Source: Lingula anatina
Lineage: Eukaryota > Animalia > Brachiopoda
Length of the DNA: 64,000 nucleotides
Direction: 5' to 3'
Assembly (NCBI GenBank): GCA_051362555.1
Contig: CM120641.1
Coordinates: forward strand, 42,972,401 to 43,036,400
The notes beneath the pieces were generated by a model, which made no database searches, was not told the DNA's origin, and saw nothing but the letters and a program-made list of their open reading frames with translations. Shown piece after piece: positions 6,572-52,159 of the stretch (the first letter of the stretch is position 1; each line of letters starts with the position of its first letter). Position numbers and translations under genes: made by a program.

Positions 6572-6602
<31 letters not shown>

Positions 6603-6617
6603 ACACACCCGCCACTG
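6275..6617. mobile_element. hAT-like MITE remnant, duplicated with the tandem unit (second copy 10273-10628)
   Basis: Starts CAGGGCCGGATGCAGG, ends CCCGCCACTG, and has G-run/C-run subterminal tracts typical of non-autonomous hAT-like elements. No clear target-site duplication (TSD). Confidence 0.45.
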
Positions 6618-7575: not shown

Positions 7576-9204
7576 TCACTTTTGTATCCTACTCTGCTTC
7601 CTCCTTATGCATCTGAAACCTCTATTGCACGAATTCATGGCCGCTACACATGCACTCCACATCTTGGATGGATTATTCTGAAAATCTGTAGGATACATAT
7701 TCCAAACACAGTCCTTGATGAATTGTATACGAATGGGGCAGAGACTTTTCTTTTTGAGACCACCTGTCGAAATTCCTAAAACATTCCTATCATTTTGCAA
7801 CCGCTCATCACTACTAAAAATTTTGCACATTAATTTTATACAAAAACTTTTAGCATCATGTGCCTTGCTCTTAAGTTCCTCTAATTCATTTTGTGTAATA
7901 CACAGTCGGGAAAACTGAAAAGCCTGTGGCACTTGAGAGTGGTGTATTGTAGATGATGTGACAGCATGAGATATATGACTGTTCTGGTGCATGAGTGGCA
8001 CTTGAGAGTGGTGTATCAATGGCATGGATGATGTGATAGTATTAGATATATGACTGTTCTGGTAGTCAGGTTCAGGTCTCCCAGGGCCAGAAATGGAGTT
8101 TGCTTCATGTAGTAAGGATGCCCCAGCAGCCACTCCAGTATCAGTTTGAATGTGACAAGTTTCATGCCTTTTTGCTTCTCTGAAAGTAACAAATGTCTTA
8201 TCACAAACCATACACTTGAATTCTTCCTTGATGAAAGTTGCATTTACCTGTCTGTGTTTTCTTTCACATTCAACCAATAAGGTACAGCTGCTGTAGTACT
8301 CATTACAGACTGAACATATGAAAATTGTAGTGCCCGTTTTAGGACATTTGTGGATACACAATAAATTTTCTCCAAAGTCACTGTGGGTAGCAAAGCAAAA
8401 CTTGCATGATGGAATTTTAAACCTACGTTCACTGGAGCTAATTTGTGCAGAAACAGCAAGCTGACCAGATGATGAGGAATTCTTATTTGATTTGTTATCA
8501 GATAGCTGGTTAGAACTTTCCAGTGACACACTAATTGTCCCCCTGTTGGCTTGTAGCTTTGGGGTTTTCTTGGGTATCTGCTCAACTGAAATGGGGCTCT
8601 TCTGTATTTTACGTTTTAAAAATGATTCCATATTTCTTGGCTGACTGTCTCGTCTTCTTGTACCTCTATCTACTGTTGAGGTGATTTCCTTTTCATTTGA
8701 TTTCTCTGTGCTATTTGGGATTGCATCAGTGCACAGTGGTGAAATGGTTTTGTCAATTGTCTTCGAGTTCAACACATCCTCCTCATTTGCACAATGGTCA
8801 ATATTGTTACAATTCTCATTACTGAGCTGAAAACTTTCATAACTTTCAACATGCATATCTAAATCAAGATCATCTTCACAGTCATCACAGACTGAATCTG
8901 GATCTGTTTTAACAAAATCCTGTGAAAAGTCAGCAAAGCTGGACTCTCTTTCAGAAGTGTTTGTGTCTGCTTGATTTGTTTTCTGGATACTTTGACCTGC
9001 AGCAGTTACTACTGGACAATTCAGGAGTGGAGATCTACTGACTTCACTCATCCTTAACACACTGTCACATAAAGAACACCTTAAAGTCAAATTTTGTTGT
9101 CCATCATCTCTTGTTATAACATCCATCTTCATATGGATCAGCAGGTGACCCTCTTGGCATATCTCTTGGTTTGAAGAAAGTGGTCTGCTCATGTCAATTC
9201 CCAT
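7576..9204 (-). CDS. Zinc finger + BEN-domain protein, copy 2 (542 aa)
   Basis: Intact ORF with the same motif order as copy 1. In-frame internal duplication of QNSHIS..TSS..IHHSQVP before the BEN domain. Confidence 0.85.
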   Translation of the reverse strand: MGIDMSRPLSSNQEICQEGHLLIHMKMDVITRDDGQQNLTLRCSLCDSVLRMSEVSRSPLLNCPVVTAAGQSIQKTNQADTNTSERESSFADFSQDFVKTDPDSVCDDCEDDLDLDMHVESYESFQLSNENCNNIDHCANEEDVLNSKTIDKTISPLCTDAIPNSTEKSNEKEITSTVDRGTRRRDSQPRNMESFLKRKIQKSPISVEQIPKKTPKLQANRGTISVSLESSNQLSDNKSNKNSSSSGQLAVSAQISSSERRFKIPSCKFCFATHSDFGENLLCIHKCPKTGTTIFICSVCNEYYSSCTLLVECERKHRQVNATFIKEEFKCMVCDKTFVTFREAKRHETCHIQTDTGVAAGASLLHEANSISGPGRPEPDYQNSHISNTITSSMPLIHHSQVPLMHQNSHISHAVTSSTIHHSQVPQAFQFSRLCITQNELEELKSKAHDAKSFCIKLMCKIFSSDERLQNDRNVLGISTGGLKKKSLCPIRIQFIKDCVWNMYPTDFQNNPSKMWSACVAAMNSCNRGFRCIRRKQSRIQK

Positions 9205-10585
9205 ACTGGTGGAGTTAACAGTGGATTCTGAAAGATAAAGACAACAGAATATTGTAAATATGAAAAAGCATGTTGTGTTTTGCTTTTCCAGTGATCATGA
9301 AGCCATAATAGAGTTGGTGTTTACATAGAAGTGTCAATCTCCACACATATATTCATGGGAATTTGACCTTTGGCAATTGCATATCAATTTTATGTTTGCA
9401 TGACCTCAATCGATGCCTTCATTATCCAAAGTTATTGTAATGTACTCAGACGTACTACCCACACCTAAAATTAATATGCAAAATAGAATGTCAGAACAGT
9501 TGATTCACATCTCTCTATTTAGAATATTCAGATACTGTTGTAAGTAACTGTAAAATGACAGTGAGCTAGTACGTCCACCTTCATGTTGGGGCTCTCAAAT
9601 ATTTTTCTAACCTCTCACCTTCTCAAATTAAGTCACACACTGTTGAAAAGCCTAGTTATGATGTTACACCTGCTGAAGACTGACAATAATGCGTGAAGTA
9701 CATACTGGTACACGTTCATTGTACACTTCATGTACGTTTTGGAGGGGTTCAGAGCTCTATTTTGTATTTGCCCCTTTCAAAACATTTCCTAAAATGCTGT
9801 TACTTACTTTCAAATTGTATCTGGTAGACTGAACGTTTCCGCACACCTGCCACTAATGAAAAACATCAAGGAACGTTTCCGAAAATCAGCGGTAATTATT
9901 GGGTTTGCACTCCATGTCCGCCGACAGGAATTGGTAAAAAAATACCCACCGATATAAATCTTATACCAAGATAAGACAAACGGTTACTAACTTCCATGTT
10001 AAATTTAAAGTTAATTTTAATTTTTCTTAAACTTTATGTAATCATGTTTAATCATTAACTTTCAAAAAATGGTAGATACCAGCTACATAGGCATAATGCC
10101 CATGGAAATATTACAGACGCGAACAAAACATAGAAATTAAAGTTATGCAAGGTACAGGTACATACATGGAAGTTGCAACATAAAACTTACCAGTACAGCC
10201 AACAGCCTTTGCAACAGGGTGCACAGCTAACCTACAAATATTGACACTGCATATGAAATATCAAATAAGTTGCAGGGCCAGATCCAGGATTATGATTATT
10301 TGAAACTTTTTTTATTTTGGGGGGGGGGGGGGGGGGGGGGGGGAGGGGGGGGTTTGAATACGAAGCTGATCCTCAGGCCCCTTGGGATGGGGTTTGGGGC
10401 CCACTGAATAAAAGACCCCTGAAAAAGTTTATGTTAGAACAAACTGTGCCATTTGGTATAGTTTAGAACTATGAATCAGCTATTCAGAATTCTAATTTCA
10501 AGAGGGCCAAATATTAGTGTGATTTATTTTTTAGAAACCGAAGGCTGGGGGGTGGGGGTGGCAGGACCCCCCTGACCCCCCCCCC

Positions 10586-10616
<31 letters not shown>

Positions 10617-11412
10617 ACATCCCCACTGCGTTGACCCAGAACGTAAGCATCGAAATGTATGTATCATAAATACTGTATCATGGAAATAATTAATAGTTAT
10701 AATATTCATAATGTGTGTGGGGTGTAACGATTTGAATAATAAATTATTTTTAAAAACTGATAGGAAGAAAATAGCGAAATATACATGAAAGTTTATAAAA
10801 ATAGAATGGGGTTGCAGGCCAAGGAAATTGTGACAAATTTTCTCATGACAATGTGTCATTGCTCTCAATTATCTTTTCTTCAAAAGGTTTACTAATACTT
10901 CAGTAAAAGGTTATCAGTTATAATATTTAGTAATTAGGAAATCCAGAAACCATTTTTACTCCAACAGTTATATTTCTGAAGATTTTTTACTCCCTAAACT
11001 TGGAATTAAGTACATTGTTCATGGTTTTAGGAGCAGTGACTCAAAAGTAGAGATCAGGTCAGATTTAATGCAAAGTTGAAGTCTTAGTAATACACAGTTT
11101 TGGCTGATGTAGTATACTTTTATTACTGCGAAATGAATAGTCAAATTAAGGCACTAACACCAACTTGGAGTGCTTATTGTCCATTTTGTTAACGTCATGA
11201 TTAAATAGACCTTTTTACAAAAACAGTGCTCATAGTTGTGCAGGTGCCAGAGGTCTATCTAAAAATAACAACTTTCACCTCCCCCCCCCCAGCACCACCA
11301 CTAAAAAAGGCTAATGTTCCATCGTCATCTTGAATTACATAATTCATTCCAATGTATTTTGTTGGAACAACGTTACCTCATAATATTAAAAATGAAACAG
11401 CACAGAATCTAG

Positions 11413-11629
11413 GATCCCATTCCCACAGAATTTAGATCAATCTATCCCTGTGAGGAGTCTCACTAGATAACGGTCAGCTTAGCCGGCTTTTTAAAGCGTC
11501 TGTTCCACCTACTAAAAGCTGTAAGGGGGTAATTAACTGTCGTGCGTGCTCGGCTGACTGCAATTTAGCGTGAACCCCCAGGGAGTTAGGTCGATCCAGA
11601 TGGATCAATCTAAATCTGTGGGAATGTAC
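11413..11629. mobile_element. MITE insertion with TCTAG target-site duplication
   Basis: Terminal inverted repeats CATTCCCACAGA(A)TTTAGAT / ATCTAAATCTGTGGGAATG, with TCTAG at 11408-11412 and 11630-11634. The paralogous site at ~7430-7450 is empty (CACAGAATCTAGAGCACTGCC). Confidence 0.75.
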
Positions 11630-11754
11630 TCTAGAGCACTGCCAGAAGTGCAAACTGATGGCATGAATAAAATCAGTTTACATAGGTCAAATATTAAAAA
11701 AAAAAGCAGAACACTTAAGACATGCATGTTCTTTCACTCAAAGACATCGCTATT

Positions 11755-13251
11755 TCATTTTTGTATTCCACTCTGCTTTTTCTTTATGCATCTGAAACCT
11801 CTATTGCACAAATTCATGGCTGATACACATGTAGTCCACATCCTGGATGGATTATTCTGAAAATCTGTAGGATACATATTTCGAGCACAGTCCTTGATGA
11901 ATTGTATACGATAAGGACAAAGACTTTTCTTTTTGAGACCACTCCCACTTGAATTTCCTAAAACATTCTTATCGTTTTGCAACCGCTCATCACTACTAAA
12001 AATTTTACACATTAATTTTATACAAAAACTTCTGGCATCATGTGCCTTGCTCTTAATTTCCTCTAATTCATATTGTGTGATACACAGACGGGAAAACTGT
12101 GCAGCCTGTGGTGGCATGAGTGGTACTTGAGAGTTGTGTATCAATGGTGTGGATGATGTGATAGCATTAGATATATGACTGTTCTGGTCTTCAGGTTCAG
12201 GTCTCCCAGGGCCAGAAATGGAGTTTGCTTTGTGTAGTAAGGATGCCCCAGCAGCGACTACAGTATCAGTTTGAATGTGACAAGTTTCGTGCCTTTTTGT
12301 TTCTCTGAAATTAAGGTATGTCTGATCACAAACTATACACTTGAATTCTTCTTTGCTGGAAGTTGCATTTACCTGTCTGTGTTTTCTTTCACATTCAATC
12401 AATAAGGCACAGCTACTGTAGTACTCATTACAAACTGAACATATGAAAATTGTGGTACCTGTTTTAGGACATTTGTGGATACACAATAAATTTTCTCCAA
12501 AGTCACTGTGGGTAGCAAAGCAAAACTTGCATGATGGAATTTTAAACCTACGTTCACTGGAGCTAATTTGTGCAGAAACAGCAAGCTGACCAGATGATGA
12601 GGAATTCTTATTTGAATTGTTATCAGATAGCTGGTTAGAACTTTCCAGTGACACACTAATTGTTTCCCTGCTGGCTTGTAGCTTTGGGGTTTTCTTGGGG
12701 TTCTGCTCAACTGAAATGGGGCTCTTATGTACTTTACGTTTTAAAAATGATTCCATATTTCTTGGCTGACTGGCTTGTCTTCTTGTTCCTCTATATACTG
12801 TTGAGGTGATTTCCTTTTCATTTGTTTTCTCTGTGCTATTTGGCACAGCAGTCTCATTACTGAGCTGGAAACTCTCATAACTTTCAACATGCATATCTAA
12901 ATCAATATCATTTTCACAGTCTCCGCAGACTGAATCTGGATCCATCTTAACAAAATCCTGCGAAAAGTCATTAAAGCTGGACTCTCTTTGTAAAGTGTTT
13001 GTGCCTGTTTGATTTGTTTCCTGGCTATTTTGCAAAGTTTGACCTGCAGCAGTTACTACTGGACAATTCAGGAATGGAGATCTACTGACATCACTCATCC
13101 TTAACACACTTTCACATAAAGAACACCTTAAAGTCAAATTTTGTTGTCCATCCTCTTTTGTTATAACATCCATCTTCATGTGGATCAGCATGTGCCCCTC
13201 TTGGCATATCTGTTGGCTTGAAGAAGCTGGTCTGCTCATGTCAATTCCCAT
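11755..13251 (-). CDS. Zinc finger + BEN-domain protein, copy 3 (498 aa)
   Basis: Intact ORF with the same motifs. In-frame linker deletion relative to copies 2 and 4. Confidence 0.85.
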   Translation of the reverse strand: MGIDMSRPASSSQQICQEGHMLIHMKMDVITKEDGQQNLTLRCSLCESVLRMSDVSRSPFLNCPVVTAAGQTLQNSQETNQTGTNTLQRESSFNDFSQDFVKMDPDSVCGDCENDIDLDMHVESYESFQLSNETAVPNSTEKTNEKEITSTVYRGTRRQASQPRNMESFLKRKVHKSPISVEQNPKKTPKLQASRETISVSLESSNQLSDNNSNKNSSSSGQLAVSAQISSSERRFKIPSCKFCFATHSDFGENLLCIHKCPKTGTTIFICSVCNEYYSSCALLIECERKHRQVNATSSKEEFKCIVCDQTYLNFRETKRHETCHIQTDTVVAAGASLLHKANSISGPGRPEPEDQNSHISNAITSSTPLIHNSQVPLMPPQAAQFSRLCITQYELEEIKSKAHDARSFCIKLMCKIFSSDERLQNDKNVLGNSSGSGLKKKSLCPYRIQFIKDCARNMYPTDFQNNPSRMWTTCVSAMNLCNRGFRCIKKKQSGIQK

Positions 13252-15533: not shown

Positions 15534-17105
15534 CTATTCCACTTGCCTCTGCTTATTACTACTTCTGAGACATCTATTGGCCGTATTCATGGCTGTTACA
15601 CACCTATTCCACATCCTTTGTGGATTATTCTGAAAATCTGTGGGATACATAGTTTGAACACAGTCCTTAATGAAATGTACACGAATGGGGCAAAAAGCTG
15701 TTTTTTTAACTGCAACATTTTCAGTTCCTAAAATATTTTTATCATTCTGCAAGCGCTCGGCTCTACTAAATATTTTACACATTAATTTTACACAAAAGCC
15801 TTTAGCATCAGGTGACTTATATTTCATTTGCTCCAATTCATGTTGAGTGATACTTAATGGGGAAAATTGTAAAGCCTGTGGCAAAGGTAGCACTTGAGAG
15901 TTGTGTATCAATGGTGTGGATGATGTGACAGCATGAGGTATATGACTGTTCTGGTCTTCATCTTCAGGTCTCCCAGGGCCAGAAATGGAGTTTGCTTCAT
16001 GTAGTAAGGATGCCCCAGCAGTCATTCCAATATCAATTTGAATGTGACAAGTTTCATGCCGCTTTGTTTCTCCAAAATCAGCAAATGTCTTATCACAAAC
16101 TATACACTTGAATTCTTCTTTGCTGGAAGTTGCATTTATCTGTCTGTGTTTTCTTTCACATTCAATCACTACGCTACAGCTGCTGTAGTACTCATTACAG
16201 ACTGAACATATGAAAATGGTGCCACCTGTTTTAGGACATTTGTGGCTGCACACTACACTTTGTCCAAATTCACTGTGGGTAGCAAAGCAAAACTTGCATG
16301 ATGGAATTTTAAACCTACGTTCACTGGAGCTAATTTGTGCAAAAACAGAAGGCTGACCAGAAGATGTGCAATTCTTATTTGAATCATTATCAGATTGCTG
16401 ATTAGATCTTTTCAGTGACACACTAATTGTTCCCCTGTTGGCTTGTAGCTTTGGGTTTTTCTTGGGTATCTGCTCAACTGAAATGGGGCTCTTCTGTATT
16501 TTACGTTTTAAAAATGATTCCATATTTCTTGGCTGAATATCTTGTGTTCTTGTACCTCTATCCACTGTTGAGGTGATTTCCTTTTCATTTGTTTTCTCTG
16601 TGCTGTTTGGGACTGCATCAGTGCACAGTGGTGAAATGGTTTTGTCAATTGGCTTTGAGTACAACACATCTGCCTCATTTGCACAAAGGTCAATATTGCT
16701 AGAATTCTTATTACTGAGCTGAAAACTTTCATAACTTTCAACATGCATATCTAAATCAAGATCATCTTCACAGTCACCGCAGACTGAATCTGGATCTGTT
16801 TTAACAAAATCCTGTGAAAAGTCATTAAAGCTGGACTCTCTTTCAGAAGTGTTTGTGTCTGCTTGATTTGTTTTCTGGCTATTTTGCAAAGTTTGACCTG
16901 CAGCAGTTACTACTGGACAATTCAGGAGTGGAGATCTACTGACATCACTCATCTTAAACACACTTTCACATAAAGAACACCTTAAAGTCAAAGTCTGTTG
17001 TCCATCCTCTCTTGTTATAACATCCATCTTCATATGGATCAGCAGGTGCCCCTCTTGGCATATCTGTTGGTTTGAAGAAGCCGGTCTGCTCATGTCAATT
17101 CCCAT
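15534..17105 (-). CDS. Zinc finger + BEN-domain protein, copy 4 (523 aa from the conserved MGIDM start)
   Basis: Intact ORF. The extension to 17255 in the ORF track runs through the conserved intron acceptor, so the paralog-conserved ATG at 17105 is used. Confidence 0.85.
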   Translation of the reverse strand: MGIDMSRPASSNQQICQEGHLLIHMKMDVITREDGQQTLTLRCSLCESVFKMSDVSRSPLLNCPVVTAAGQTLQNSQKTNQADTNTSERESSFNDFSQDFVKTDPDSVCGDCEDDLDLDMHVESYESFQLSNKNSSNIDLCANEADVLYSKPIDKTISPLCTDAVPNSTEKTNEKEITSTVDRGTRTQDIQPRNMESFLKRKIQKSPISVEQIPKKNPKLQANRGTISVSLKRSNQQSDNDSNKNCTSSGQPSVFAQISSSERRFKIPSCKFCFATHSEFGQSVVCSHKCPKTGGTIFICSVCNEYYSSCSVVIECERKHRQINATSSKEEFKCIVCDKTFADFGETKRHETCHIQIDIGMTAGASLLHEANSISGPGRPEDEDQNSHIPHAVTSSTPLIHNSQVLPLPQALQFSPLSITQHELEQMKYKSPDAKGFCVKLMCKIFSRAERLQNDKNILGTENVAVKKTAFCPIRVHFIKDCVQTMYPTDFQNNPQRMWNRCVTAMNTANRCLRSSNKQRQVE

Positions 17106-17615: not shown

Positions 17616-20258
17616 GGCTCTCACCTTCTCAAGTCCCGAACTGCTGCAACCAGTTTTGTTGTGAAGTCTGAAGAAGATGAAATTTATCTACCCGTCTATC
17701 AGTTGTTTTCAGATATTATGCTGTAGAGAAATGACTGTTTATGACTGCCAACATCTGTCTATTGTGTATGTACATTCAGATATTTAATTTTACCTGTGCC
17801 CCTTTTGAAATAAAATACTCGTTAGCACTCTACTAGCACCAACACGAATAAAGAAATCTCTCCTGGAAAAGCGCCACCTACAGTTTTGTCTCCAAACAAC
17901 AATTCAGTTTATGACACCGGACCTGTGCGCTCTACATGATAATTTCGTGACCACTGATTCTATACGGTAAGTTTTTCACGCTCCTCTAACAAACACTTTG
18001 GTGTGTATCATTGTCACTTGTAGCTACCAGAAGACTAAATAACCTTGACCACTCAGGTTCACTGTATTTGGCGATAGTAAGTAAAAACTGAGCCACGCTT
18101 TTGCTTTTGGTGCAAGAAATTTTGACACTTTTGCTGTATTCCCCCACCATGAAACTTGGTGACATTCAATATTAAATTATTTGTGTGGTGAATTTGAGTA
18201 ATATCTCCTCTACTCAAATAGTTTGTAGATTTGTTTACCAATTTTAAGATGCTTGTACAGTGGTAGCTTTATTGACGCCGCCTTAATTCACAACTAAAGT
18301 TTATTCGAAGGCTAACAGATTGGCGGATTAAATATGGCTTGAAAAGCTTATAGTGTATTTCCCCAAGGGGAATTGACTCGGTGTCTGTTAGGGGAATGTG
18401 TGATAAGCTGGCAAGTAGGTTTGCCATAAATGATCCGGGGAGTGGGTTTTGCTACACACCCAGTGACAGTCTCAGGGGAAATCCTAGACTAGGTCTGACT
18501 CTCTGGAGGGTCTCAGTAAAGTGCTATCATCTTAACTGGCTTAAATATCTCTCACGCCTACCGAATCAGCAAGAGGGTAAAGATAACTACTCCCTTACGG
18601 CTTTACTCACCCTCATTGCTAAAAGGATAGGAAAGGAATGTCATGCCTTATGAATTAAGTTTCGCCCTTATTGACAAATTGTTGTTCTACTTACCTTTCA
18701 TTCTTCTAGTTATTCTGTTTTTTTTCCTGAAATTTTTCAACATTGGCTTTAGTGCCAGTTTTGACTTGTTTTGTGATAATTTTTTTCAATTTTTTCTAGT
18801 TTAAACCAGTTTCCATTGTTAACTCAAACAGAATGGGAATTGACATGAGCAGACCAGCTTCTTTAAGCCAACAGATATGCCAAGAAGGGCACCTGCTGAT
18901 TCATATGAAGATGGATATTATAACAACAGAGGATAAACAACAAAATTTGACTTTCAGGTGTTCTTTATGTGACACTGTGTTAAAAATGATTGATGTCGGT
19001 AAACTTATCAATCATCCAGTAGTAACTGCTATAGATCACACTTCGCAAAATAGCCAGACAACAAATCAAACAGACACAAACACTTCAGCAAGAGAGTCAA
19101 GTTTTGTTGATTTCGCACAAGATTTTACAAAAACTGAGTTAGCTTCATCAGAAAGAGAGTCAAGTTCTGCTGAGGTTGCACAAGATTTTACAAAAACTGA
19201 GTTAGCTTCATCCCAGGGAGAACGTGAAGATGAGATTTCAGAAAGAGAGAGTAATTTTAATGACTTTGCAGTAAAGACAGAGTTAGTTTCTCTCCAGGGC
19301 GATTGTGAAGATGACATCGGCTTAGATATGCACGTTGAAAGTTATGAGAGTGTCGAGCTTGATCTTGGAAATAAACAAGAAAATAGTGCAGCAAATTCCA
19401 ACCAGATGCAACCTTTGACTAATGATACAGAAGCTGGTACCTCATCTGTTCAACAAATTGTTTCTGACAAGAGAAAATCCAATGCAAATAGTGCAGCAAT
19501 TTCCAACCAGATGCTACCTTTGACTAATGTTACAGAAGCTGGTACCTCATCTGTTCAACATATTGTTTCTGACAAGAGAAAATCCAATGCACCTTCTGGA
19601 TATAAGGAACCACTAAGTAAATTTTGCAAATCGACTGAAGGTGAGTTTGGACAAAGTTTAATGTGGGGCCACGTGTAAAAAAATTAAAAAGCATCCTTTT
19701 GAGCTGTTCTGTCTGTAGTGATTATTATGGCAGCTGTAAACTTTGTGGTGGAATGTGAAAGCAAACACAGACTTTTAAAAAACAATTGCTCCAAGCAGGC
19801 TGGTTGCCAGGGGGGGTTGGGGGGGGTTCCATTGAACCACCCTTTTTGCCTTGAAAAGGTCTGCTCTAAGTCAAATTTTGATCACTGTTCTTTGTCATTT
19901 CTCACTGTTCTCAATAAAGAATATTCATCATTTTTATACAAAAAGTGAAATAAAGCAGACAGTTTTGATAGTTACGCTCTGCGTCAAATATACCCAATGG
20001 GAGAGTAAGGTCGTCAACTTCACTTGCATTTTAAGTTGCCAACGCATTTTTGCTATTAGCGTCAAAACACACTCTTTATGTGTAATTTATTGGAATGATA
20101 ACTAAAATCCAAAAACCCACAGATCTCTAGCTAAGACTTGTTAGGTTATGGCGTCATTTTTTGTCAAAAAGTAATGATTGAACTTTTAAAAATCAGCACA
20201 CATCTTTGTCGTTCATTTGGTCGTCCATGACACAAATGGAAGGTTAGGACTACTCGGA

Positions 20259-22312
20259 ATGCATTGCAAGATCGGAGGGAAAATGAAACACACTAAAAGA
20301 CCAGGTAGGCTCTGTGAATATTTTTGTCAAGCATATCGTACTCGTAATGATCAAATTCTTTTAGCAGTCTTGTAACAATCAACAGTGTTTTTGTGCATTT
20401 TTGTGATTTTGATGATGATTTGCACTTTATTATTAACTTGAAGCGAGTGTACAGCATATTATATTGTGTAACAGCAGACGATTTACATACCGCTAAATTC
20501 GAGTGAAATATTTGCCCGCTTAAATGTCAAATTAAAAAGTTACAGTTTATGTCAGTGTAGCAATTGTCGGACAATGAAGCTACATGCCTCTTAGTACAAA
20601 AGTTAACTTTATTTTATCAGTTTGAAGCATGGTTTTCTCAAACAATTTATTATTTCTGTGTTCAGATACATGATATCACGTTGCATTTGTTCTCTTTTTT
20701 TTTTTTTTTTTTTTGACAAGCAATTCCATTTGACGCAGACCAGCTGTCCTACTTCATATCTTTAAGACTTTTAACCACCTCCTTATTTTCATTTACCTCA
20801 CATTTATGAATCAACAGTATTAGAATAAAACACTCCATTACCTTTTGGCCAGCCTACCCTGCTGTTACCCAGCGACAGGGGGAACCCCTGCCCAATTTTT
20901 TTAAAAGGGGGGGGGGGGGGGGGTAAATATTGGACTTTAAGGCATCTACCCCTCCTGGATACTGGTGGTCTGCTTTTCATAACATATTTTTAACAATTCA
21001 GATATGCCAATGAATATTACATTTGACTTAATCATCTGTCTTCTGTGTTTTTACCAGATTTGGAGTAATACTTAAACATAATTGCCCTTTTCAGGTCTAT
21101 GTGAGAGACCACTGTCCCCAGTGGCTCTAAGTCATAAAGAGAGAGAACAAAGAAAGAGGGAAAAGAACAAATTAAGTTGCAAGGAATGGCGGGAGAATAT
21201 GAAATCAGACCCCATTCGTAGTGAAAAACAGAAGCAAAAAGACAGGGAAAGGAACAGGGCTAACCGACATAAAGCTAAGACAGAGGAGGAAAAGGCACGA
21301 CAGAGGGAGCTTACCAGAGAGCGTGTGCGCAGATTTAGGTAAATTCTAGGATCACTCAGCTAACTCAGAGGAGAGCAAGATATAAAAAACCAGCTGGTTT
21401 GATTTATAGAAATTGTGTAAGCTATAATAATACCAGCTGATGTTTTAAAGGTTAAGAAAATTATGAATATTAAAACAATTTACAGAGTTATCACTGTAAA
21501 ATGAATATTCTGGATAACTTATGAAGGTTAACTATTTATTTTTCTTTGAAGGATTATGATTTCACTAACTGTTATAAGCATATTTTTATAATCATTTATT
21601 ATTATAATTTCTGACAATTTTAGGGCCAAGCAGAAAGCAGAAAAATCAAAGGTAACAATTAACCAAAAGAAAGTAACCACACGCCCAAAAGAGAAAAGAA
21701 ATACAAAGGCTGTTAAGCTTCAAAGAGAAAAATGGAAAATGTCCAAAAGGAAACAAAGGGAACAGTGGACCCAACAGAAATGGAAATGTCACAGAGAAAA
21801 AAAACGTAATGCATATTACAAGCGAAAAAGGACTGCAAAAGGTTATCACACTTTTAATATTCGGTAACTTTGAATTTTTCTCATTTAAAAGGTATTTTCA
21901 TTTAGCTGCAGCTTTATGTTGTTTTATTAATTTTTATTATTGACTAACCCTCTCCTATTTTGTACAGTGAACATTCATATCTCCCTATAGAGACATTCCC
22001 TTAATAGTGTGCTTATAATTATTTCAAATTTTCAGAGTGCCATACATCTTCCTCCCTTCAAAATGCCTCGGGGCAATAATGTGGAAAAAAATTGGGGAGC
22101 ATACTGTCTTCTTTGAAGAAATCACTTTGCAAGAGGTGTCTTATTTTGCAAGTTAAAGGTGTTGCAATATCATCCCCACCTAACAGCCTGTACAAAAGAA
22201 GACAGAAGCACAAGGGGACAGAAGCAGCTAAGAAATTTATGGAGGAACAGTCCGTACACATTCCACATAAGAAAACTGCAGTGAGAGTTAAACAGAGAAA
22301 GATACTCCAGAA
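20259..22312 (+). pseudogene. Degenerate multi-exon K/R/E-rich protein resembling the N-terminal region of invertebrate DNA transposases (Sola-like, tentative)
   Basis: Exons ~20259-20304, 21095-21338, 21624-21841 and 22037-22312 give ..KEREQRKREKNKLSCKEWRE..RQRELTRERVRRFRAKQK..QREKWKMSKRKQREQW..REKKRNAYYKRK.., then (with a stop/frameshift) ..KKFMEEQSVHIPHKKTAVRVKQRKILQK. No DDE/DDD catalytic region seen. Confidence 0.4.
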
Positions 22313-22740
22313 GGTTGAGATGATTACACCAGAACTTTCTGTAGAGCCACCCCCACACCAAGTGGTCCTTATGGCATGTACAGACACACGCCAAAACAAA
22401 TTATACCAGTAAACATCAAAAGTGGAGGCAGTGTTTGTGTGAGATCTGTTACAGTATTGACCTGAAACTCGTTGTTGGATATTACATGGACACAGTTGCT
22501 AGTGTTACACTGTGTCCAACTGCAAAATGTAACACCTGACATTGTAAACCATTAGTTTAGTAGCTCAACTGAGTGTTAATCACTTAAATTTAACTAGTCA
22601 GATTTTCTCATTATATTTGACAATGTTGCATTTTAATGAAAAGGAGTGGAGGTACTGACTATTGGATGTTACACTGGACATAGTGAAGAATGAAAAAGAT
22701 GTTACAAAATATGACTTGCAGGTTAAGGAATTGACACATA

Positions 22741-22907
22741 TAGGCCTACCCAACTACCAGACTTGGCACCGAATGATCACAAATACCAACTACCAGACTC
22801 GGCTCTGAAGCGTGTACTGACTCACACCTTGAAAACGGGTAGTGGGGTCCGATCTACCGGTGAATTCAGGATCATTTGGTGCCAAGTCTGGTAGTTGGGT
22901 AGGCCTG
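22741..22907. mobile_element. Short MITE, AGGCCTACCCAACTACCAGA family
   Basis: ~37-bp TIRs AGGCCTACCCAACTACCAGACTTGGCACC / GGTGCCAAGTCTGGTAGTTGGGTAGGCCT. Same family as 23674-24211. Confidence 0.75.
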
Positions 22908-23673
22908 CAAATACTTATGTTAACATGTAAATCTACAATAAAAATAGCATTGTGTCCAATGCAATGTCCGAATGCAATGGGGCAGGAATCCTTTTTAATA
23001 AATTTCTCAAAAATGCTGGCCTGGGTTATCTTTTTGTGATATGCACTATATGGAGAAATTATAAGTCTTTCAACACATAAGATTAGGAACCAGTAACATA
23101 GGATATCATGAATTTTTATATTGTGCTTATTAGCAGCAAAAATAAGTATATTGGAATTTTTCTTTTCACTTAAATATATTCCCTGTTAATGAAAGATAGC
23201 CTTCAATACTTTTCAGCAAATTAAATATATTTGAATAATTAACATCTTAGGTTTTCTTCAATAAAAACCTTTTTTTTATTTTTGTGATAGAGGTCCACTT
23301 TTTCAGAAATAGAACACCCCCTTTGAAACTGCGGTTACTGTCCTTAGAGTCCGAGGAAGAGTTAAAGTGTAGAATGAAATTTGCAGATTGGAAAAAAAAA
23401 AAAAGAAAAAAAAACATGAATTTTGTCACAATTCAAATGATATTGAAGTGCTTTCTAAACTTTATGATTATTCAAACAATTGTTTGGTTATCTGCATAGG
23501 TTAAAACATTGACTATTTTCTGGCTTTTTCACTTCTAGATGAGACTTGATACTCTGTGCCTTCTGGTATTGATGAAGGTAACATTTAATCAGGGCATTTA
23601 GATGTGAAATTTTATTGTAGTATTTTTAAATCACTTGGAGAAAAAAATTTCCTCACCTTAGCTGCAACAGTAT

Positions 23674-24211
23674 CAGGCCTACCCAACTACCAGACTCGGC
23701 ACCTAAGGATCCTGAATTAACCGGTATATCGGACCACACTACCCGTTTTCAAGGTGTGTGTCAGATTGCATTTCGGAGTATCAGCCAGAACACCGACAGG
23801 ATGAGCCCTGACATGCTCGGCTGTCACCTTGATTGGATAGTAAACGATTGTCGTAAAATCGCTATATGATTTTAAAACCGGGTGCATAATTTTGAAAGCC
23901 ACCTAGATGAACCTTAGACTGCCACATTAATCTAATACAATGCAAAAAAGCCCTATCAAAAGTGGTTAAAACATTCAAACCGAATGTCGTAAAGTCCCCA
24001 TATATCCCCATAGAGACAATAAAATAGAGTACTCTAAAGTAAGAGTACAGTTTAAGGTTGTTCAGCCGAGCGTGGATGAGCCCGCAGTCGTGCTACAAAA
24101 TTTGTTCTGGGGTATGATACTCCGAAATGCGATCTGACACGGGTAGCGTGGTCCGATATACCGGTTAATTCGGGATCCTTAGGTGCCGAGTCTGGTAGTT
24201 GGGTAGGCCTG
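23674..24211. mobile_element. 538-bp MITE with long (~70 bp) TIRs and AGTAT direct flanks
   Basis: CAGGCCTACCCAACTACCAGACTCGGCACCTAAGGATCC..AATTAACCGGTATATCGGACCAC is mirrored at ~24140-24211. AGTAT at 23669-23673 and 24212-24216. Confidence 0.8.
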
Positions 24212-24400
24212 AGTATTCAATTGACCTACACATTTGACCCGTTGTGCAAAATAAAATTTTGGTGTTGACTTTGCTGTGAAGCATAATGTATTATTGCATC
24301 AGGTTTGACAGTAGCCTATTTTGTGCATCATTATTTTCTGCTTTTTGTCTGTACATTCAACAGCTTTGCTGCCATATTTGTGATTTGGTTTCTATTCCAG

Positions 24401-27255
24401 ATAGAGCTGTGTTCCAGTGTAGAGTAAGCGGGTGTGATAAGGTGTTTAGCTCAATGTGTGCCCTACAAAAACACAGTAGGACCCACACCGGTATTTACCC
24501 ATTCAACTGTTTGGAATGCAACAAAGGGTTTCACTCCAAATCTAAGCTTGAAGACCACAAGAGGGCTAATCACACGGAGGAAAAATTCCATTGCCTTCGC
24601 TGTGACAAGACAGTTAGTACTCTGTACGTATCTTTATACAGATGAATCATTATTGTCATGTATTAGAAAAATATATGTATAAGTTACATCAAGAAGCTTA
24701 AGTGCACAGGTGAATTCTGGCATTGTTTTATTTGTACCAAACTCAATTATTAGTACCACCAGCGTGTACGCTGGCGGTACTCATGGTTTTAGTCCCGACC
24801 CGTCTCGTACAGCTCCGCCGGCTCCTGCGGCTCCGCAGGATGGCGTGGGATACAAGTCACCGTTACCGCTTCTCCTACTAGACCGCAAGGACCTATGTCC
24901 CCATCTCTTGGATTTTGGTCACATATAATCTCAACTTGAACCCCCTGGTTTTTTTGTCTCAGTCGGTGCATTGGCCTGGGTGTGGCGCTCGTTGTAACGC
25001 ACCCTTGTCAAAATTTTTGAAAATTCGATGCTAAATATCTCCCATACCGAAGGAATTATGTGAAAAATTTCTACAGATGGCTGACCGAAAGTCATATGTG
25101 GAGATTTCAAATATGCCCTTGGATTTGACCTTTGATCTTTATTTCAAGGTCAAACGGGCCAAAATTTTCTAAAAATGGAAATTTTTTGCAAAAAAATTAT
25201 TATTTTATGCCGATTTTCAGAAACTTCACAGATCTAACTTATAATATTATGGACGGGTGTTACCCCTTAGGGTCTTCTTTCATCTTCGTGAGTTTGGGGT
25301 CAATCGGTGCATTTTCACGGGAGTAGCGGCCAATAGATGCCAAAACTGAAAACTCTCTCAAATTCTGGAACTGTTAATGCCAGAGACCTCTTGTTTTTTC
25401 ATTTTGTAGAGCTTGTCAAGCGCAACACTGAAGGTGGTCTCCGTTTTTTGTTTTCGATACGGCTTAGGCATTGTACTATATCGACAGTTCAACATCCAAT
25501 ATTTAGTGGTGAAAATAAAATGTGAAATACTACAAAATTAGCAGAGATACGCCCATAGTTACTATTAAACTTGAATAGGAAGTCATATACTGGTAATCTA
25601 ACTGTGACCTTGAAATTGACCTTTGACCTACTTTTCATAATGAACTGCACTTTGCAAGTTTTCTGATTTTTATATCTCCAAAACTGGCAAAGATATGCCC
25701 ATAGTTACTGTTGAACTTGAATAGGAAGTCATTTTCTGGCAATCTAACTGTGATCCTGAAATTGACCTCTGACCTACTTTACACCATGAACTGAAATTTG
25801 CAAATTTTCTAGCCCTTACATCTCTTAAACTGGCAAAGATACCCCCATAGCTACTGTTGAACTTGAGTAGGAAGTCATATACTGGCAATCTTACTGTGAC
25901 CTTTAAATTGACCTCTGACCTCCTTTTCACCATGAACTGAACTTTGCAAATTTTGGTTCCCTTTTCTCTCTAAAACTGGTAGAGATATGTCCATAGTTAC
26001 TATTGAAGTTGAATAGGAAGTCACATACTGGCAATTTACTGTGACCTTAAAATTGACCTTTGACCTACTTTTTACCATGAACTGAACTTTGCAAAATTTT
26101 GTTCCCTTTTATCTCCAAAACTGGCAGAGATAGGTCCATAGTTACTATTGAACTTGAATAGGAAGTCATATACTGGCAATCTAGGAGTGACCTTTAAATT
26201 GACCTTTGACCTACTTTTCATCATGAATTGAACTTTGCAAATTTTGGTTCCCTTTTATTTCCAAAACTGGCAGAGATAGGTCTATAGTTACTATTGAAGT
26301 TGAATAGGAAGTCACATACTGGCAATTTATCTGTGACCTTGAAATTGACCTTGACCTACTTTACAGCATAAAATGAACTTTGTAACTTTTTTAATACTTT
26401 TTTTTATACTTTCAAAACTGGCAAAGATATGCCCATAGTTACCATTGAACTTGAATAGGAAGTCATATACTGGCAATTTACTGACCTTAAAATTAACCTT
26501 TGACCTACTTTTTACCCTGAACTGAACTTTGCAAATTTCCATTCCCTTTTATCTCCAAAACTGGCAGAGATGTGCCCGGTGTTGCCCCTAGGTTTTCTCT
26601 TTTGTCAGCATATATGCACCACTGACAACACATTTTAAGGAAAACCAATAGGCCTTTTGTCTAGAGAATCACAGGAGTGATCAATGGTAGGAAAATGCAG
26701 GTCAGTTCAAAAATCTGCTTGATTGTACCATTTTTATTTATATTTTTTGGCATATTTTGAGAACTCTTGTTGATTGCATTTTATAGAGCTTGTCAAGCAC
26801 AAGACTGGTGATGGTGTCCCTTTTTTTTGGGGGGGGGTCCATACGAATGCGCTTACTCCAGCTGGTGGTACAATATCCGGAGGCGGTATCGCCTCTCTGA
26901 TCCTCTAGTTAACAATGTAATTGCAATAGTAATAAAAGTATTATTTTCGTATTTCAGCCAGGGTCTCAAGCTTCATGATGAGCTGCATGGAGAAAAAGTC
27001 CACCAGTGCCATGTATGTGAGAAGTCATTTTCTTCAAGAACCTACCTCAGTCGTCATCTGAGGACACACATTGCCTGCTATGACTGTAATCTATGTGATA
27101 AAAGCTATTCTAGTCAACAGCATTTAAAGATACACATGGCCACTCACAGTGATAAAACCTTTACCTGCAGCAAGTGCACATTCAAAACCCATTATAACCA
27201 CTCATACGTGCGTCATCTTAAAACACATGAAAGAGATCCAAATCTGTCAGCTTGA
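24401..27255 (+). CDS. Six-finger C2H2 zinc-finger coding exons (24401-24623, 26958-27255); 5' exon(s) uncertain
   Basis: Splicing CT|GTACGT to TTTCAG|C restores a perfect C-x2-C-x12-H-x3-H finger (CLRCDKTVSTLQGLKLHDELH). Six tandem fingers, an HTGIYPF linker, and a stop at 27255. Confidence 0.7.
24747..26910 (+). mobile_element. Non-autonomous Helentron/HINE (DINE-1-like) element inside the zinc-finger intron
   Basis: 5' subTIR GTACCACCAGC (24753-24763) with adjacent inverted copy GCTGGCGGTAC (24770-24780), internal tandem repeats, 3' subTIR GCTGGTGGTAC (26861-26871), stem-loop GAGGCG-gtat-CGCCTC (26880-26895) and terminal CTAGTT. Confidence 0.75.
25541..26577. repeat. ~146-bp tandem satellite, ~7 copies
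   Basis: GA(A/G)TAGGAAGTCA anchor at 25573, 25719, 25865, 26011, 26156, 26302 and 26453. TGACCTT motifs in every unit. Confidence 0.92.

Positions 27256-28700: not shown

Positions 28701-28701
<1 letters not shown>

Positions 28702-28755
<54 letters not shown>
28702..28755. repeat. (TA)n microsatellite
   Basis: Uninterrupted TA run. Confidence 0.95.
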
Positions 28756-28757
<2 letters not shown>

Positions 28758-30160: not shown

Positions 30161-31486
30161 ATGGGGATTGACATGAGCAGACCTTCTCCAAACCAACAGA
30201 CATGCCAAGGTGGGCACCTGCTGATCCATATGAAGATGGATGTTATAACAAGAGAGGGTGGACAACAGACTTTGACTTTAAGGTGTTCTTTATGTGAAAG
30301 TGTGTTACGGATGAGTGATGTTAGTAGATCTGAACTCATCAATCATCCAGTAGTAACTGCTGCAGGTCAAACTTTGCAAAATAGCCAGGAAACAAATCCA
30401 ACAGACACCAACATTCTAGAAAGAGAGTCTAATTTTGACAACTTTGCAATAAAGACAGAATTAGTTTCTACTGAGGGAGAATGTGAAGATGACATTGACT
30501 TAGATATGCATGTTGAAAGTTATGAGGGCACTCAGCTTGATCTTGGCAATAATAATCAAGCAAATAGTGCAGCAAAATCTAACCAGGTGCTGCCTTTGGC
30601 TAACAATACAGAAGAAGCTGGTACTTCATCTGTTCAACAGATTATTTCTGACACAAGAAGATCCAATGCACCTTCTGGATTTGAAGAACCACTATGTAAA
30701 TTTTGCAAATCAACTGAAGGAGAGTTTGGAGAAAGTTTTATATGGGGCCACATGTGTAAGAAATTAAAAAGCATACTTTTCATCTGTTCTGTCTGCAATG
30801 AATATTACGGCAGCTGTAACCTTGTGACAGAATGTGAAAGCAAACACAGACGTATAAAAAACAATTGCAACAAGGAAGAGTTTAAGTGTATGGTTTGTGG
30901 CATAAAATTTGCAGATTTAGGAGAAACAAAAAGGCATGAATTTTGTCACAATTCAAATGATTCTGAAGTGCTCTCTGATACCTCTTTACAACCTGAATTA
31001 AACGACTCAAGATTTCACGGACCTGAAACAGAAAACCATCACACACAGAAGTTTCAAGTCATGGCACTGCCGGCACCATCAAACAGCAGACATGTGCCAT
31101 CCCGCGAAAACCAGCAATTGACGCAGGGTGCACAAATTCTACCACCTATCATCAGTCCACAAGAAATAGAAGAGATTAAACATAAGTCGTTCAAACCTGA
31201 AAGTTTCTGTGTTGCATTAATGGCAAAGATATTTAGTAGGGTGGAGCGGTCAGAGAAGGACACAAATGTTTTGGGAATAAAAAAACTGAAAAAATTATGT
31301 CCAGTTCGTATACAGTTCATTAAAGACTGTGTTCATCAAAATTATCCCAAGCATTTTCAAAAGGAACCTGGAAAGACGTGGTCTCGATGTGTAGGTGCCA
31401 TGAACAATGCCAACAGATCTTTAAGATTTAAAGATGCACAGTTCAAGATTTTTCTGCAAAAAACTCGAAAAAACTCAAAAAAGTGA
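30161..31486 (+). CDS. Zinc finger + BEN-domain protein, copy 6 (441 aa from MGIDM)
   Basis: Intact ORF with all zinc motifs and BEN-like FCVALMAKIFSRVE..NVLG..LCPVRIQFIKDCV..YP..WSRCVGAMNNANRSLR. Acceptor 23 nt before the ATG; 5' exon donor at ~29350. Confidence 0.85.
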   Translation: MGIDMSRPSPNQQTCQGGHLLIHMKMDVITREGGQQTLTLRCSLCESVLRMSDVSRSELINHPVVTAAGQTLQNSQETNPTDTNILERESNFDNFAIKTELVSTEGECEDDIDLDMHVESYEGTQLDLGNNNQANSAAKSNQVLPLANNTEEAGTSSVQQIISDTRRSNAPSGFEEPLCKFCKSTEGEFGESFIWGHMCKKLKSILFICSVCNEYYGSCNLVTECESKHRRIKNNCNKEEFKCMVCGIKFADLGETKRHEFCHNSNDSEVLSDTSLQPELNDSRFHGPETENHHTQKFQVMALPAPSNSRHVPSRENQQLTQGAQILPPIISPQEIEEIKHKSFKPESFCVALMAKIFSRVERSEKDTNVLGIKKLKKLCPVRIQFIKDCVHQNYPKHFQKEPGKTWSRCVGAMNNANRSLRFKDAQFKIFLQKTRKNSKK

Positions 31487-37176: not shown

Positions 37177-38496
37177 CTAAGACTTTGTTGCATTATAAAA
37201 TCTTAAAGATCTGTTAGCACTGTTCATGGCACCAACACATTTTCTCCACCGGCACATCTCATTTTGGAAATGCTGTGGATAATTTTGATGGACACAGTCT
37301 TTTATGAACTGTATACGAACTGGGCAGAATTTCTTTTTATTAAAAGTTCCCAAAATATTTGTGTCATTCTGCAACCGTTCGGCATTACTTAATATCTTTG
37401 CCATTAATGCCACACAGAACTGTTCAGGCTTTTGCGACTTGAATTTTATGTGTTGTAAGTCTTGTGGACTGATGATGGGTGGTAGAATTTGTGTACCCAC
37501 TGTCAATGACCGGCTTTCATGGGATGGCACTTGTATGTTGTTTGATGGTGTGGATGATGCCATAGATGGCAACTTCTGTGTTTGCTGGTTTTCTGATTCA
37601 GGTCCCTGAGATTTGGAGTCGGAGTTTAATTCAGGCTGCACAGAGATACCAAAATGCACTTCAGAGTCATTTGAATTGTGACAAAGTTCATGCCTTTTTG
37701 TTTCCCTTAAATCTGCAAATTTTATACTACAGACCATACACTTAAACTCTTCCTTGTTATAACTGTTTTTTATAAGTCTGTGTTTCCTTTCACATTCTGT
37801 CACCAAGTTACAGCTGCCGTAATACTCATTGCAGACGGAACAGATGTAAATGTTGCCTTCCAACTTTTTACAGTTGTGGCCCCAGATTAAACCTTGTTCA
37901 AATTCTCCTTCAGTTGCATTGCAAAATTTACACGTTGGTTTCCTCACTCCAGAAGGTGCACTGAATCCTCTCTGGGCAGAAAAAGTCTGTGGAACAGATG
38001 AGATGCCAGCTTTTGCTGTATGATTAGCAAGAGGTGCAATCTGGTTGGGATTTTTTAAAAGGTCACTAACTGTTGCAATATTTCCTTGGTTATGTTTGGC
38101 AAGATCAAGCTGGCCGCTTTCATAACTTTCAACCTGCATGTCTAACCCAATGCTACCTTCACAGTCTTCACAGGTTAAATCTGAGTCTGTCTTTATAAAA
38201 TTATGTGCAAAGTCATCAAATTTAGACTCTCTTTCTGTAGGGTTTGTGTCTGTTTGATTTGCTTTCTGGCCATTTTGCAAAGTTTGACCTGCAGCAGTTA
38301 CTACTGGATGATTAATAAATGCAGATCTACTGAAGCCACTCATCCTTAACACACTGTCACATAAAAAACACCTTAAAGTCAAAGTCTGTTGTCCATCCTC
38401 TCTTGTTATAACATCCATCTTCATATGGATCAACAGGTGCCCCTCTTGGCATGTCTGTTGGCTTGAAGAAGCTGGTCTGCTCATGTCAATTCCCAT
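37177..38496 (-). CDS. Zinc finger + BEN-domain protein, copy 7 (439 aa from MGIDM)
   Basis: Intact ORF, closest to copy 6 (ILPPIISPQ, FCVALMAKI, VGAMN.ANRSLRF) and convergent with it. Confidence 0.85.
   Translation of the reverse strand: MGIDMSRPASSSQQTCQEGHLLIHMKMDVITREDGQQTLTLRCFLCDSVLRMSGFSRSAFINHPVVTAAGQTLQNGQKANQTDTNPTERESKFDDFAHNFIKTDSDLTCEDCEGSIGLDMQVESYESGQLDLAKHNQGNIATVSDLLKNPNQIAPLANHTAKAGISSVPQTFSAQRGFSAPSGVRKPTCKFCNATEGEFEQGLIWGHNCKKLEGNIYICSVCNEYYGSCNLVTECERKHRLIKNSYNKEEFKCMVCSIKFADLRETKRHELCHNSNDSEVHFGISVQPELNSDSKSQGPESENQQTQKLPSMASSTPSNNIQVPSHESRSLTVGTQILPPIISPQDLQHIKFKSQKPEQFCVALMAKILSNAERLQNDTNILGTFNKKKFCPVRIQFIKDCVHQNYPQHFQNEMCRWRKCVGAMNSANRSLRFYNATKS

Positions 38497-45726: not shown

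Positions 45727-52159
<6,433 letters not shown>

What the first reader, a model, noticed from the sequence alone, without database searches (positions are those of the whole stretch)
18833..27255. Possible domain-swap chimera: copy 5 N-terminus spliced onto a six-finger C2H2 array in place of BEN
Seen: only copy 5 has AAG|GTGAGT at 19640/19641; copies 6 and 7 have GAAGGAGA. This consensus phase-1 donor lies ~35 nt before the frameshift, and the upstream 269 codons are stop-free despite two internal duplications. The orphan C2H2 exon at 24401 has a phase-1 acceptor. Joining 18833-19640 + 24401-24623 + 26958-27255 gives 1329 nt, an open 442-aa protein. The basic exons 21095-21338 and 21624-21841 are also phase-compatible optional cassettes. 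Inference: the apparent pseudogene may be a new gene that keeps the N-terminal module but swaps its DNA-binding domain.
Basis: partly seen in the sequence, partly recalled or inferred. Interest (0 to 1): 0.75.

Follow-up and report, generated by a model that had tools for sequence, protein, structure and literature searches.

The report
Brachiopod gene swaps DNA-binding domain
In a lamp shell (Lingula), one copy of a tandem gene family lost its BEN DNA-binding half and gained a splice site from one silent base change, and RNA reads show its front half joined to unrelated downstream exons, which likely makes a new six-zinc-finger gene regulator out of what looks like a dead gene.

Summary
Confirmed, with RNA. 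Copy 5 of an eight-gene Zn-module/BEN family (Lingula by database names of its paralogs) is transcribed and spliced at the new donor 19640, which differs from its sister copy 6 by one silent change (GGA>GGT). Run X9 (reads mostly 90-95% alike, a likely divergent lineage) joins 19640 to the C2H2 exon at 24401 (5 reads). Run X1 (219 of 311 reads >=99% alike) joins it to basic exon 21095 (10 reads); at most 2 of 32 reads run on unspliced. All 24 finger ligands are intact. Corrections: the two basic exons keep frame only as a pair (596 aa); they lie in a 3.56-kb insertion; a copy-5 remnant resumes at 23354-23456; the BEN half is gone. Not seen: joins 21338>21624, 21841>24401, 24623>26958, so in window-type animals a finger-less 431-437-aa product is not excluded. 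Selection is mixed: frame kept, omega ~0.34 between lineages but ~1.2 since the split from copy 6. A new variant of chimeric gene birth with ZAD/KRAB-ZNF-like layout. This scan had not noted it elsewhere.

The parts
17936..17966 (+). 3' part of the 5' non-coding exon (start not mapped); donor G|GTAAGT, spliced to 18800
   Evidence: loose ends: 42 reads in X1 match 17936-17965 exactly; 3 reads in X9 carry a diverged version
18800..19640 (+). Exon 2 of the chimera; ATG at 18833; 269 codons + 1 nt
   Evidence: depth 12-96 in X1, first mates on the minus strand, as for sense RNA in most stranded libraries
18833..18988 (+). Family N-terminal module, C16-x3-H20...C43-x2-C46, likely a zinc site; all four residues invariant in 8 of 8 copies
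   Evidence: no family above cut-off, no fold match
19085..19212 (+). 63-bp tandem duplication, in frame
19381..19591 (+). 105-bp tandem duplication, in frame; X9 reads skip 111 nt here (19406>19518), also in frame
19638..19646 (+). New splice donor AAG|GTGAGT inside the ancestral coding exon; differs from copy 6 by one silent change (Gly GGA>GGT)
   Evidence: used in RNA
19641..19795 (+). Abandoned ancestral coding sequence (zinc-finger region), now intron; two frameshifts
   Evidence: 85.6% identical to copy 6
19796..23353 (.). 3.56-kb insertion, likely transposon-derived (not shown); right edge uncertain by ~10 nt
   Evidence: inverted-end test not significant
21095..21338 (+). Basic exon B1 (81 codons), spliced to 19640 in X1
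   Evidence: (10 reads, 30 of 30 letters)
21624..21841 (+). Basic exon B2 (predicted); donor AAG|GTTATC is weak (6 of 9); B1+B2 add 154 aa with 59 K/R
   Evidence: not covered by reads laid
22036..22412 (+). Broken third exon of the insertion, in frame with B2, stop after 14 codons; possible trap exon
   Evidence: no Pfam family
23354..23456 (+). Last remnant of copy 5's own coding sequence (copy 6 30873-30976); nothing of the BEN half follows
   Evidence: BEN-half alignment score 37, shuffled mean 36.4, max 47
24401..24623 (+). C2H2 exon Z1: fingers 1, 2 and first half of 3; spliced to 19640 in X9
   Evidence: (5 reads, 29 of 30 letters, the one change silent)
26958..27255 (+). C2H2 exon Z2: rest of finger 3, fingers 4-6, stop; first AATAAA downstream at 28035
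   Evidence: join to Z1 predicted from frame, not covered by reads laid
30161..31486 (+). Copy 6, intact sister gene (441 aa: N module, linker, zinc fingers, BEN)
   Evidence: copy 5 + copy 6, 99% support
15534..17105 (-). Copy 4, intact, head-to-head with copy 5 (its 5' exon donor at 17625)
   Evidence: (15 cross-laid reads show its join)
3514..13251 (-). Copies 1-3, intact (3514-5106, 7576-9204, 11755-13251)
37177..44029 (-). Copies 7 (37177-38496) and 8 (42551-44029, most divergent), intact

Best explanation
Copy 5 is a transcribed chimeric gene whose inherited front half is spliced at a new donor to foreign downstream exons, and it likely encodes a transcription factor with the family's N-terminal zinc module on a six-finger C2H2 array in place of the lost BEN domain. 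SHOWN: it is the sister of copy 6; one silent change separates its donor from copy 6's non-donor; the BEN half is absent; RNA joins 17966>18800, 19640>24401 (X9) and 19640>21095 (X1); the frames of 442 aa and 596 aa are open; all 24 finger ligands are intact. INFERRED: a deletion or insertion after 23456 put the two C2H2 exons behind the broken gene; the new donor let the spliceosome skip the wreck and reach them in phase; a separate insertion supplied two basic exons (the copy-5 remnant at 23354-23456 lies between them and the fingers, so the two additions are independent) that window-type animals include as a pair, giving 596 aa. PREDICTED: the fingers read DNA and the N module plus acidic linker recruits the same partners as in the BEN paralogs, so the family's regulatory activity would be redirected to new target sites, as the ZAD or KRAB module does in ZAD-/KRAB-ZNF proteins.
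For:: loose ends behind 19640 in X9 (5 reads) equal the start of exon 24401 at 29 of 30 letters; behind 19642 in X1 (10 reads) equal exon 21095 at 30 of 30 (the shared GT explains the 2-nt shift); at 19661/19666 30 of 32 X1 reads carry copy-1 letters, so at most 2 run through the donor; depth falls to 0.37 and then 0 after 19697. The donor is used in two lineages that differ by roughly 5-10 letters in 100. Copy-1 reads cross the homologous GT unspliced (23 reads); length changes against copy 6 in the N exon are all net in frame (3, 6, 153, 3, 102 nt; the 153 is aligned as 82+71), while 3 of 4 after the donor shift the frame (Fisher p 0.048); the two X7/X9 length changes (3 and 111 nt) are in frame too; window versus X9, 15 silent and 19 replacement differences, omega ~0.34, p 0.002 (34 of the 40 rows shown; 40 more rows were not shown). 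Chance of an open frame by shuffling: B1 0.009, B2 0.013. BEN identity of the paralogs' lost half: profile hits BEND3 structures at E 7e-9. The Cys pair cut by the donor has decayed (Cys>Ser in the window; second Cys>Arg in X9 reads).
Against: The direct join to the fingers is listed in 1 of 4 runs, 5 reads, in the divergent lineage; in X1, which matches the window, only the join to B1 is listed (7 loose-end rows were not shown; by count at most about 6 of 18 reads at 19633 are unassigned). Joins B1>B2, B2>Z1 and Z1>Z2 lay outside the stretch laid. B2's donor is weak and two finger-less endings exist (431 aa, 437 aa). On the branch from copy 6 the N exon shows 7 silent: 31 replacement changes (omega ~1.2, also ~1.1 in codons 1-60) against 14:14 (~0.28) on copy 6's branch (Fisher p 0.008): relaxed or positive selection, or a spell as a pseudogene. 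No database protein with this N-terminus or these fingers was found (copies 1, 4 and 8 were not returned either, so this is weak). DNA binding, protein product and the N module's role are untested; the source of the C2H2 exons is unknown (no whole genome).
Confidence: 0.75

Rival explanations
1. The chimera is real in the X9-type lineage but has been gene-trapped in window-type animals: the message goes N>B1>B2 and then stops (read-through stop, 431 aa, or the insertion's broken third exon at 22036, 437 aa), giving an N-module protein with a basic tail and no fingers.
For: X1 lists only 19640>21095; B2's donor scores 6 of 9, an in-frame acceptor lies 194 nt on at 22036, and AATAAA sites follow at 22937-23260.
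Against: Both finger exons are intact in the window (24 of 24 ligands, no stop in 521 nt); B1+B2 sum to a multiple of three and land in phase on Z1; the only difference seen between window and X9 in Z1's first 30 nt is silent. Intactness could also reflect a recent trap.
Confidence: 0.15
2. The C2H2 exons belong to a separate gene with its own promoter or first exon, and 19640>24401 is a minor read-through join between neighbours.
For: No reads were laid on Z1, so other upstream partners are untested; ten GT sites with >=7 of 9 consensus lie in 19800-24350; an in-frame Met lies within finger 1.
Against: Z1 begins mid-frame just before finger 1 and needs a phase-1 donor; in X9 the only listed continuation at 19640 is Z1 and depth after 19655 is 0 up to 19737, so for copy 5 this is the main route, not a minor one.
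Confidence: 0.05
3. Copy 5 is a transcribed pseudogene driven by the promoter it shares head-to-head with copy 4; the splices are tolerated noise and the open frames are selected only, if at all, for escape from decay.
For: omega ~1.2 on the copy-5 branch and a branch twice as long as copy 6's (0.142 vs 0.074); head-to-head first exons 341 nt apart; no database protein.
Against: Same donor in two diverged lineages, omega ~0.34 between them, all length changes before the donor in frame, four N-module ligands and 24 finger ligands kept.
Confidence: 0.05

Closest known systems
Chimeric new genes born by exon shuffling (e.g. Drosophila cases in PMC1463047, PMC2211543, bioRxiv 10.1101/2025.10.28.685065; search listing and abstract starts only; jingwei recalled)
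   Same: A duplicate keeps its promoter and 5' coding part and is spliced in frame to foreign exons; fast amino-acid change after birth is described for such genes (recalled).
   Different: Here the parent's coding region has no intron (single ORFs), so the join needed a donor made inside the coding exon by one silent change; the swap replaces one DNA-binding domain class (BEN) by another (C2H2); a second, independent pair of exons was added on top.
ZAD-ZNF (insects) and KRAB-ZNF (tetrapods) transcription factors (PMC7655104, passages read; PMC7913770, listing)
   Same: N-terminal module, long variable low-complexity linker, C-terminal tandem C2H2 array; PMC7655104 reports rapid, often adaptive linker evolution in ZAD-ZNFs, as the fast N exon here might show.
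   Different: The module is C-x3-H...C-x2-C, with no Pfam match to ZAD, KRAB, SCAN or BTB; single gene, not an expanded family as far as the window shows; the module comes from a BEN-domain family.
BEN-domain factors, BEND3 and BANP (PDB 7w27, 7v9i, 7yuk; PMC8887127 listing)
   Same: The seven intact paralogs end in a BEND3-like BEN domain (profile E 7e-9).
   Different: Copy 5 has lost it; Pfam BEN scores of single paralogs are below the curated cut-off (best E 0.0017); the paralogs add an unnamed N module and 2-3 atypical zinc fingers.
Domain shuffling in the Lingula genome (Luo et al. 2015, PMC4595640; passages read; supplements not read)
   Same: Gene-family expansion and new domain combinations are reported as features of this genome.
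   Different: The passages found concern EGF-collagens and shell proteins; 'zinc finger' does not occur in the main text.

Membership tests
Chimeric gene (exon shuffling) | Coding parts of two unrelated origins | tested here: met
   N exon is sister to copy 6; Z1/Z2 have no blastn match to any paralog in the window, only generic finger likeness at E >= 0.9
Chimeric gene (exon shuffling) | Parts joined in spliced RNA | tested here: met
   19640>24401, 5 reads in X9; 19640>21095, 10 reads in X1
Chimeric gene (exon shuffling) | One open frame across the whole message | tested here: inconclusive
   442 and 596 aa open in DNA; downstream joins not covered by reads
Chimeric gene (exon shuffling) | Purifying selection on the new product | tested here: inconclusive
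   omega ~0.34 between lineages, frame kept; omega ~1.2 on the branch from copy 6; no data on the finger exons beyond 30 nt
Chimeric gene (exon shuffling) | Donor gene of the acquired exons identified | not testable with these tools
   no whole genome held; best 150 library hits <= 45% identical
C2H2 zinc-finger array protein | Tandem C-x2,4-C-x12-H-x3,5-H fingers with intact ligands | tested here: met
   6 fingers, 24 of 24 ligands; Pfam zf-C2H2 E 1e-8 and 9e-13, above cut-off
C2H2 zinc-finger array protein | Sequence-specific DNA binding | not testable with these tools
   needs SELEX or ChIP; only two of five linkers resemble the usual TGEKP type (motif recalled)
BEN-domain family (parent) | C-terminal BEN domain | tested here: not met
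   met for the paralog profile; no trace in copy 5 between 23457 and 30100
ZAD-ZNF / KRAB-ZNF / SCAN-ZNF / BTB-ZNF | N-terminal ZAD, KRAB, SCAN or BTB domain | tested here: not met
   no such Pfam hit at E <= 0.1; no PDB sequence hit under E 1; no fold match from a low-confidence model
ZAD-ZNF / KRAB-ZNF / SCAN-ZNF / BTB-ZNF | Layout: module, variable linker, C-terminal C2H2 array | tested here: met
   (works-like claim only)
ZAD-ZNF / KRAB-ZNF / SCAN-ZNF / BTB-ZNF | Module dimerises or recruits a co-regulator | not testable with these tools
   needs a biochemical assay
Cut-and-paste DNA transposon (for 19796-23353) | Terminal inverted repeats and target-site duplication | tested here: inconclusive
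   end-to-end score reached by 119 of 2000 shuffles; a 12-of-14 inverted match near the ends; candidate 8-bp duplication matches 5 of 8
Cut-and-paste DNA transposon (for 19796-23353) | Transposase domain | tested here: not met
   no Pfam family for B1, B2 or 22080-22409 beyond E 0.03; no relatives; a likeness of 22080-22409 to invertebrate transposase N-termini is recalled only

The most novel reading that the evidence does not exclude
This is the founding member of a new, brachiopod-specific class of effector-plus-C2H2 transcription factors, caught in two stages: first a one-base silent change moved an unnamed zinc module from a BEN factor onto a finger array, then a likely mobile insertion added a 154-aa basic arm in one lineage. 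It would be a living model of how KRAB-, ZAD- and SCAN-type zinc-finger families start, with the parent genes still next door.
Probability: 0.35. Interest if true: 0.75.

Novelty: new variant of a known kind. Interest (0 to 1): 0.58.

Why it matters
The large zinc-finger families of animals pair one effector module with swappable finger arrays, but their first fusion events are ancient. Here the parent family, the sister gene, the single base that makes the donor, the decaying left-over sequence and two lineage states of the message lie within 15 kb, so the steps can be ordered and tested. It also shows that a sequence that reads as a frameshifted pseudogene, and for which no database protein was found, can be an expressed gene.

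Tried and rejected
No whole genome is held, so copy number of the insertion and the source of the finger exons could not be sought. Run search: no RNA holder listed; nine raw-read runs offered by species label, of which 4 (X1, X4, X7, X9) were laid, at 6-30 in 100 of each run. X4 (20 reads) and X7 (24 reads) gave no listed loose end. Reads were laid on 18795-20000 only. Depth at 19641-19696 in X1 was first a candidate for read-through and rejected: it is copy-1 cross-mapping. 'Optional single cassettes' rejected. BEN half displaced rather than lost: rejected within 23457-30100. Inverted-end test of the insertion not significant. Homolog searches: N exon gave only four Lingula paralogs; B1 nothing; Z2 only long generic finger proteins; 22080-22409 nothing in metagenome contigs and did not complete by the Atlas. 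N-module model pLDDT 58.5, no fold match; Atlas on P0003 residues 1-70: no usable feature hit, weak zinc-ribbon-like structure rows under the bar. Two-copy fold of the N module with zinc: verdict 'no answer', score 0.02, no evidence either way. Literature: no paper holds both 'Lingula anatina' and 'BEN domain'; searches listed no report of this gene or of a BEN-to-C2H2 swap; the library lacks most subscription papers, and supplements (e.g. of PMC4595640) were not read. That X7/X9 are a separate lineage or cryptic species is my inference from read likeness; one search found no paper on it. Earlier scan notes: none near this place or alike in sequence.
Full report
Setting. The window holds eight tandem genes with single-ORF coding regions. 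Database searches with copy 5's N exon return four proteins named by their sources as Lingula anatina LOC106150820/841/824/828, which differ from window copies 3, 2, 6 and 7 at 4 of 498, 3 of 542, 10 of 441 and 12 of 439 residues. Intact copies read: N module (C16, H20, C43, C46 invariant in 8 of 8), variable linker, 2-3 atypical zinc fingers, C-terminal BEN domain (profile of 7 copies hits BEND3 at E 7e-9 and BANP at E 0.02). Copy 5 groups with copy 6 at 99% support on 676 gap-free columns.

Observation. The donor, the stop-free 269 codons, both duplications, the frameshift about 36 nt after the donor and the 442-aa join are all as described. Copy 6 has Gly GGA where copy 5 has GGT: one silent change gives a 9-of-9 donor. 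The basic exons are frame-compatible only as a pair (596 aa). New: blastn against copy 6 stops at 19795 and resumes at 23354-23456 with the adjoining copy-6 bases, so 19796-23353 is an insertion that carries B1, B2 and a broken third exon. Beyond 23456 no BEN-half remnant scores above shuffles. Because the remnant lies between the basic exons and the finger exons, these are two separate additions.

RNA. Four of nine offered runs were laid on 18795-20000: 311, 20, 24 and 35 reads. X1 and X4 mostly match the window at >= 99%; X7 and X9 mostly at 90-95%, a likely divergent lineage under the same label. X1: 42 reads bring a 5' exon ending at 17966 to 18800; 10 reads continue from the donor into B1. 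X9: 3 reads bring a diverged form of the same 5' exon; 5 reads continue from 19640 into Z1. The X1 depth just after the donor is copy-1 cross-mapping (30 of 32 reads carry copy-1 letters; loose ends on both sides are copy-1 sequence); these reads cross the homologous GT unspliced and serve as a control. Seven loose-end rows and 40 difference rows were not shown, so a minor N>Z1 route in X1, or N>B1 in X9, is not excluded. Joins further downstream were outside the stretch.

Selection. For: five length changes before the donor are net in frame, three of four after it shift the frame (some in-frame ones may predate the fusion); both X7/X9 length changes are in frame; 15 silent against 19 replacement differences between window and X9 (34 rows used of 40 shown; left out were one untranslated site, one mixed site, two sites varying in X1 only and two copy-1 sites), omega ~0.34, p 0.002 (14:20 and 0.39 when counted by codon); 24 of 24 finger ligands intact; B1 and B2 open against shuffle odds of 0.009 and 0.013. 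Against: with copy 7 as outgroup the copy-5 branch has 7 silent and 31 replacement changes in the N exon (omega ~1.2), not lower than after the donor (5:17, ~0.76), against 14:14 for copy 6. These are parsimony counts without correction. I read this as a burst of relaxed or adaptive change around the birth of the gene followed by constraint; a pseudogene phase cannot be told from that.

Mechanism. Shown: inherited promoter region and 5' exon in use, new donor in use, two foreign partners, loss of BEN. Inferred: a rearrangement after 23456 brought two C2H2 exons behind copy 5; the donor rescued a frame by skipping the cut zinc-finger region, whose Cys pair has since decayed; the insertion's two exons were taken in as a frame-neutral pair in window-type animals, adding 154 aa with 59 K/R, which would plausibly add nuclear targeting or non-specific nucleic-acid binding. 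Predicted: the protein binds DNA through the fingers and carries the family's module to new sites. Confidence 0.75; chief rival, a finger-less trapped message in window-type animals, 0.15.

Comparison. It is a chimeric gene of the known exon-shuffling kind (listings), and works like a ZAD- or KRAB-ZNF in layout (PMC7655104 passages), but fails membership in those families and is no longer a BEN protein. The insertion is likely transposon-derived but did not pass tests for inverted ends or a transposase. No report of this gene was found in the searches listed under Tried and rejected. Two unchecked scan notes on this genome describe genes with one front half and many swappable DNA-binding ends; a sequence look-up with copy 6's database protein found no likeness to any noted stretch, so a link is only thematic.

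Verdict. Observation confirmed, interpretation supported by reads, two corrections. New variant of a known kind; interest 0.58.

Noticed in passing
window 17625 (-) and 17966 (+): First exons of copy 4 and copy 5 lie head-to-head, donors 341 nt apart: a likely shared two-way promoter. Cross-laid X1 reads show copies 1, 3 and 4 are also transcribed.
   Followed up: partly
window 17513-17616: A 104-bp near-perfect palindrome (96%) right behind copy 4's first-exon donor.
   Followed up: no
window 23673-24212 and 22742-22907: A 540-bp element with ~120-bp inverted ends (84%) just before Z1, and a shorter relative inside the insertion: MITE-like family.
   Followed up: partly
window 25533-26577: 146-bp tandem repeat, 7.2 copies, in the intron that splits finger 3; flanked by a 68-bp direct repeat (25383-25449, 26759-26826).
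   Followed up: no
window 42551-44029 (-): Copy 8, the most divergent, has an extra canonical C2H2 finger in its linker (residues 197-220, Pfam E 0.004) and GC instead of GT at the column of copy 5's donor (CAGG|GCGAGT).
   Followed up: no
window 32494-33184 (-): Broken pogo/Tigger-like transposase remnant between copies 6 and 7 (HTH_Tnp_Tc5, E 0.0014, under cut-off).
   Followed up: partly
window ~45700-51340 (-): Multi-exon FSIP1-family gene flanks the cluster (Pfam FSIP1 E 3e-9).
   Followed up: partly
runs X7, X9: Reads filed under the same species label as X1/X4 are mostly only 90-95% alike in coding sequence, well beyond the 1.6% heterozygosity given in PMC4595640: likely a distinct lineage or cryptic species.
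   Followed up: partly
window 7926-8063 (-): Copy 2 has a 75-bp internal duplication before its BEN domain; linker duplications recur in this family.
   Followed up: no
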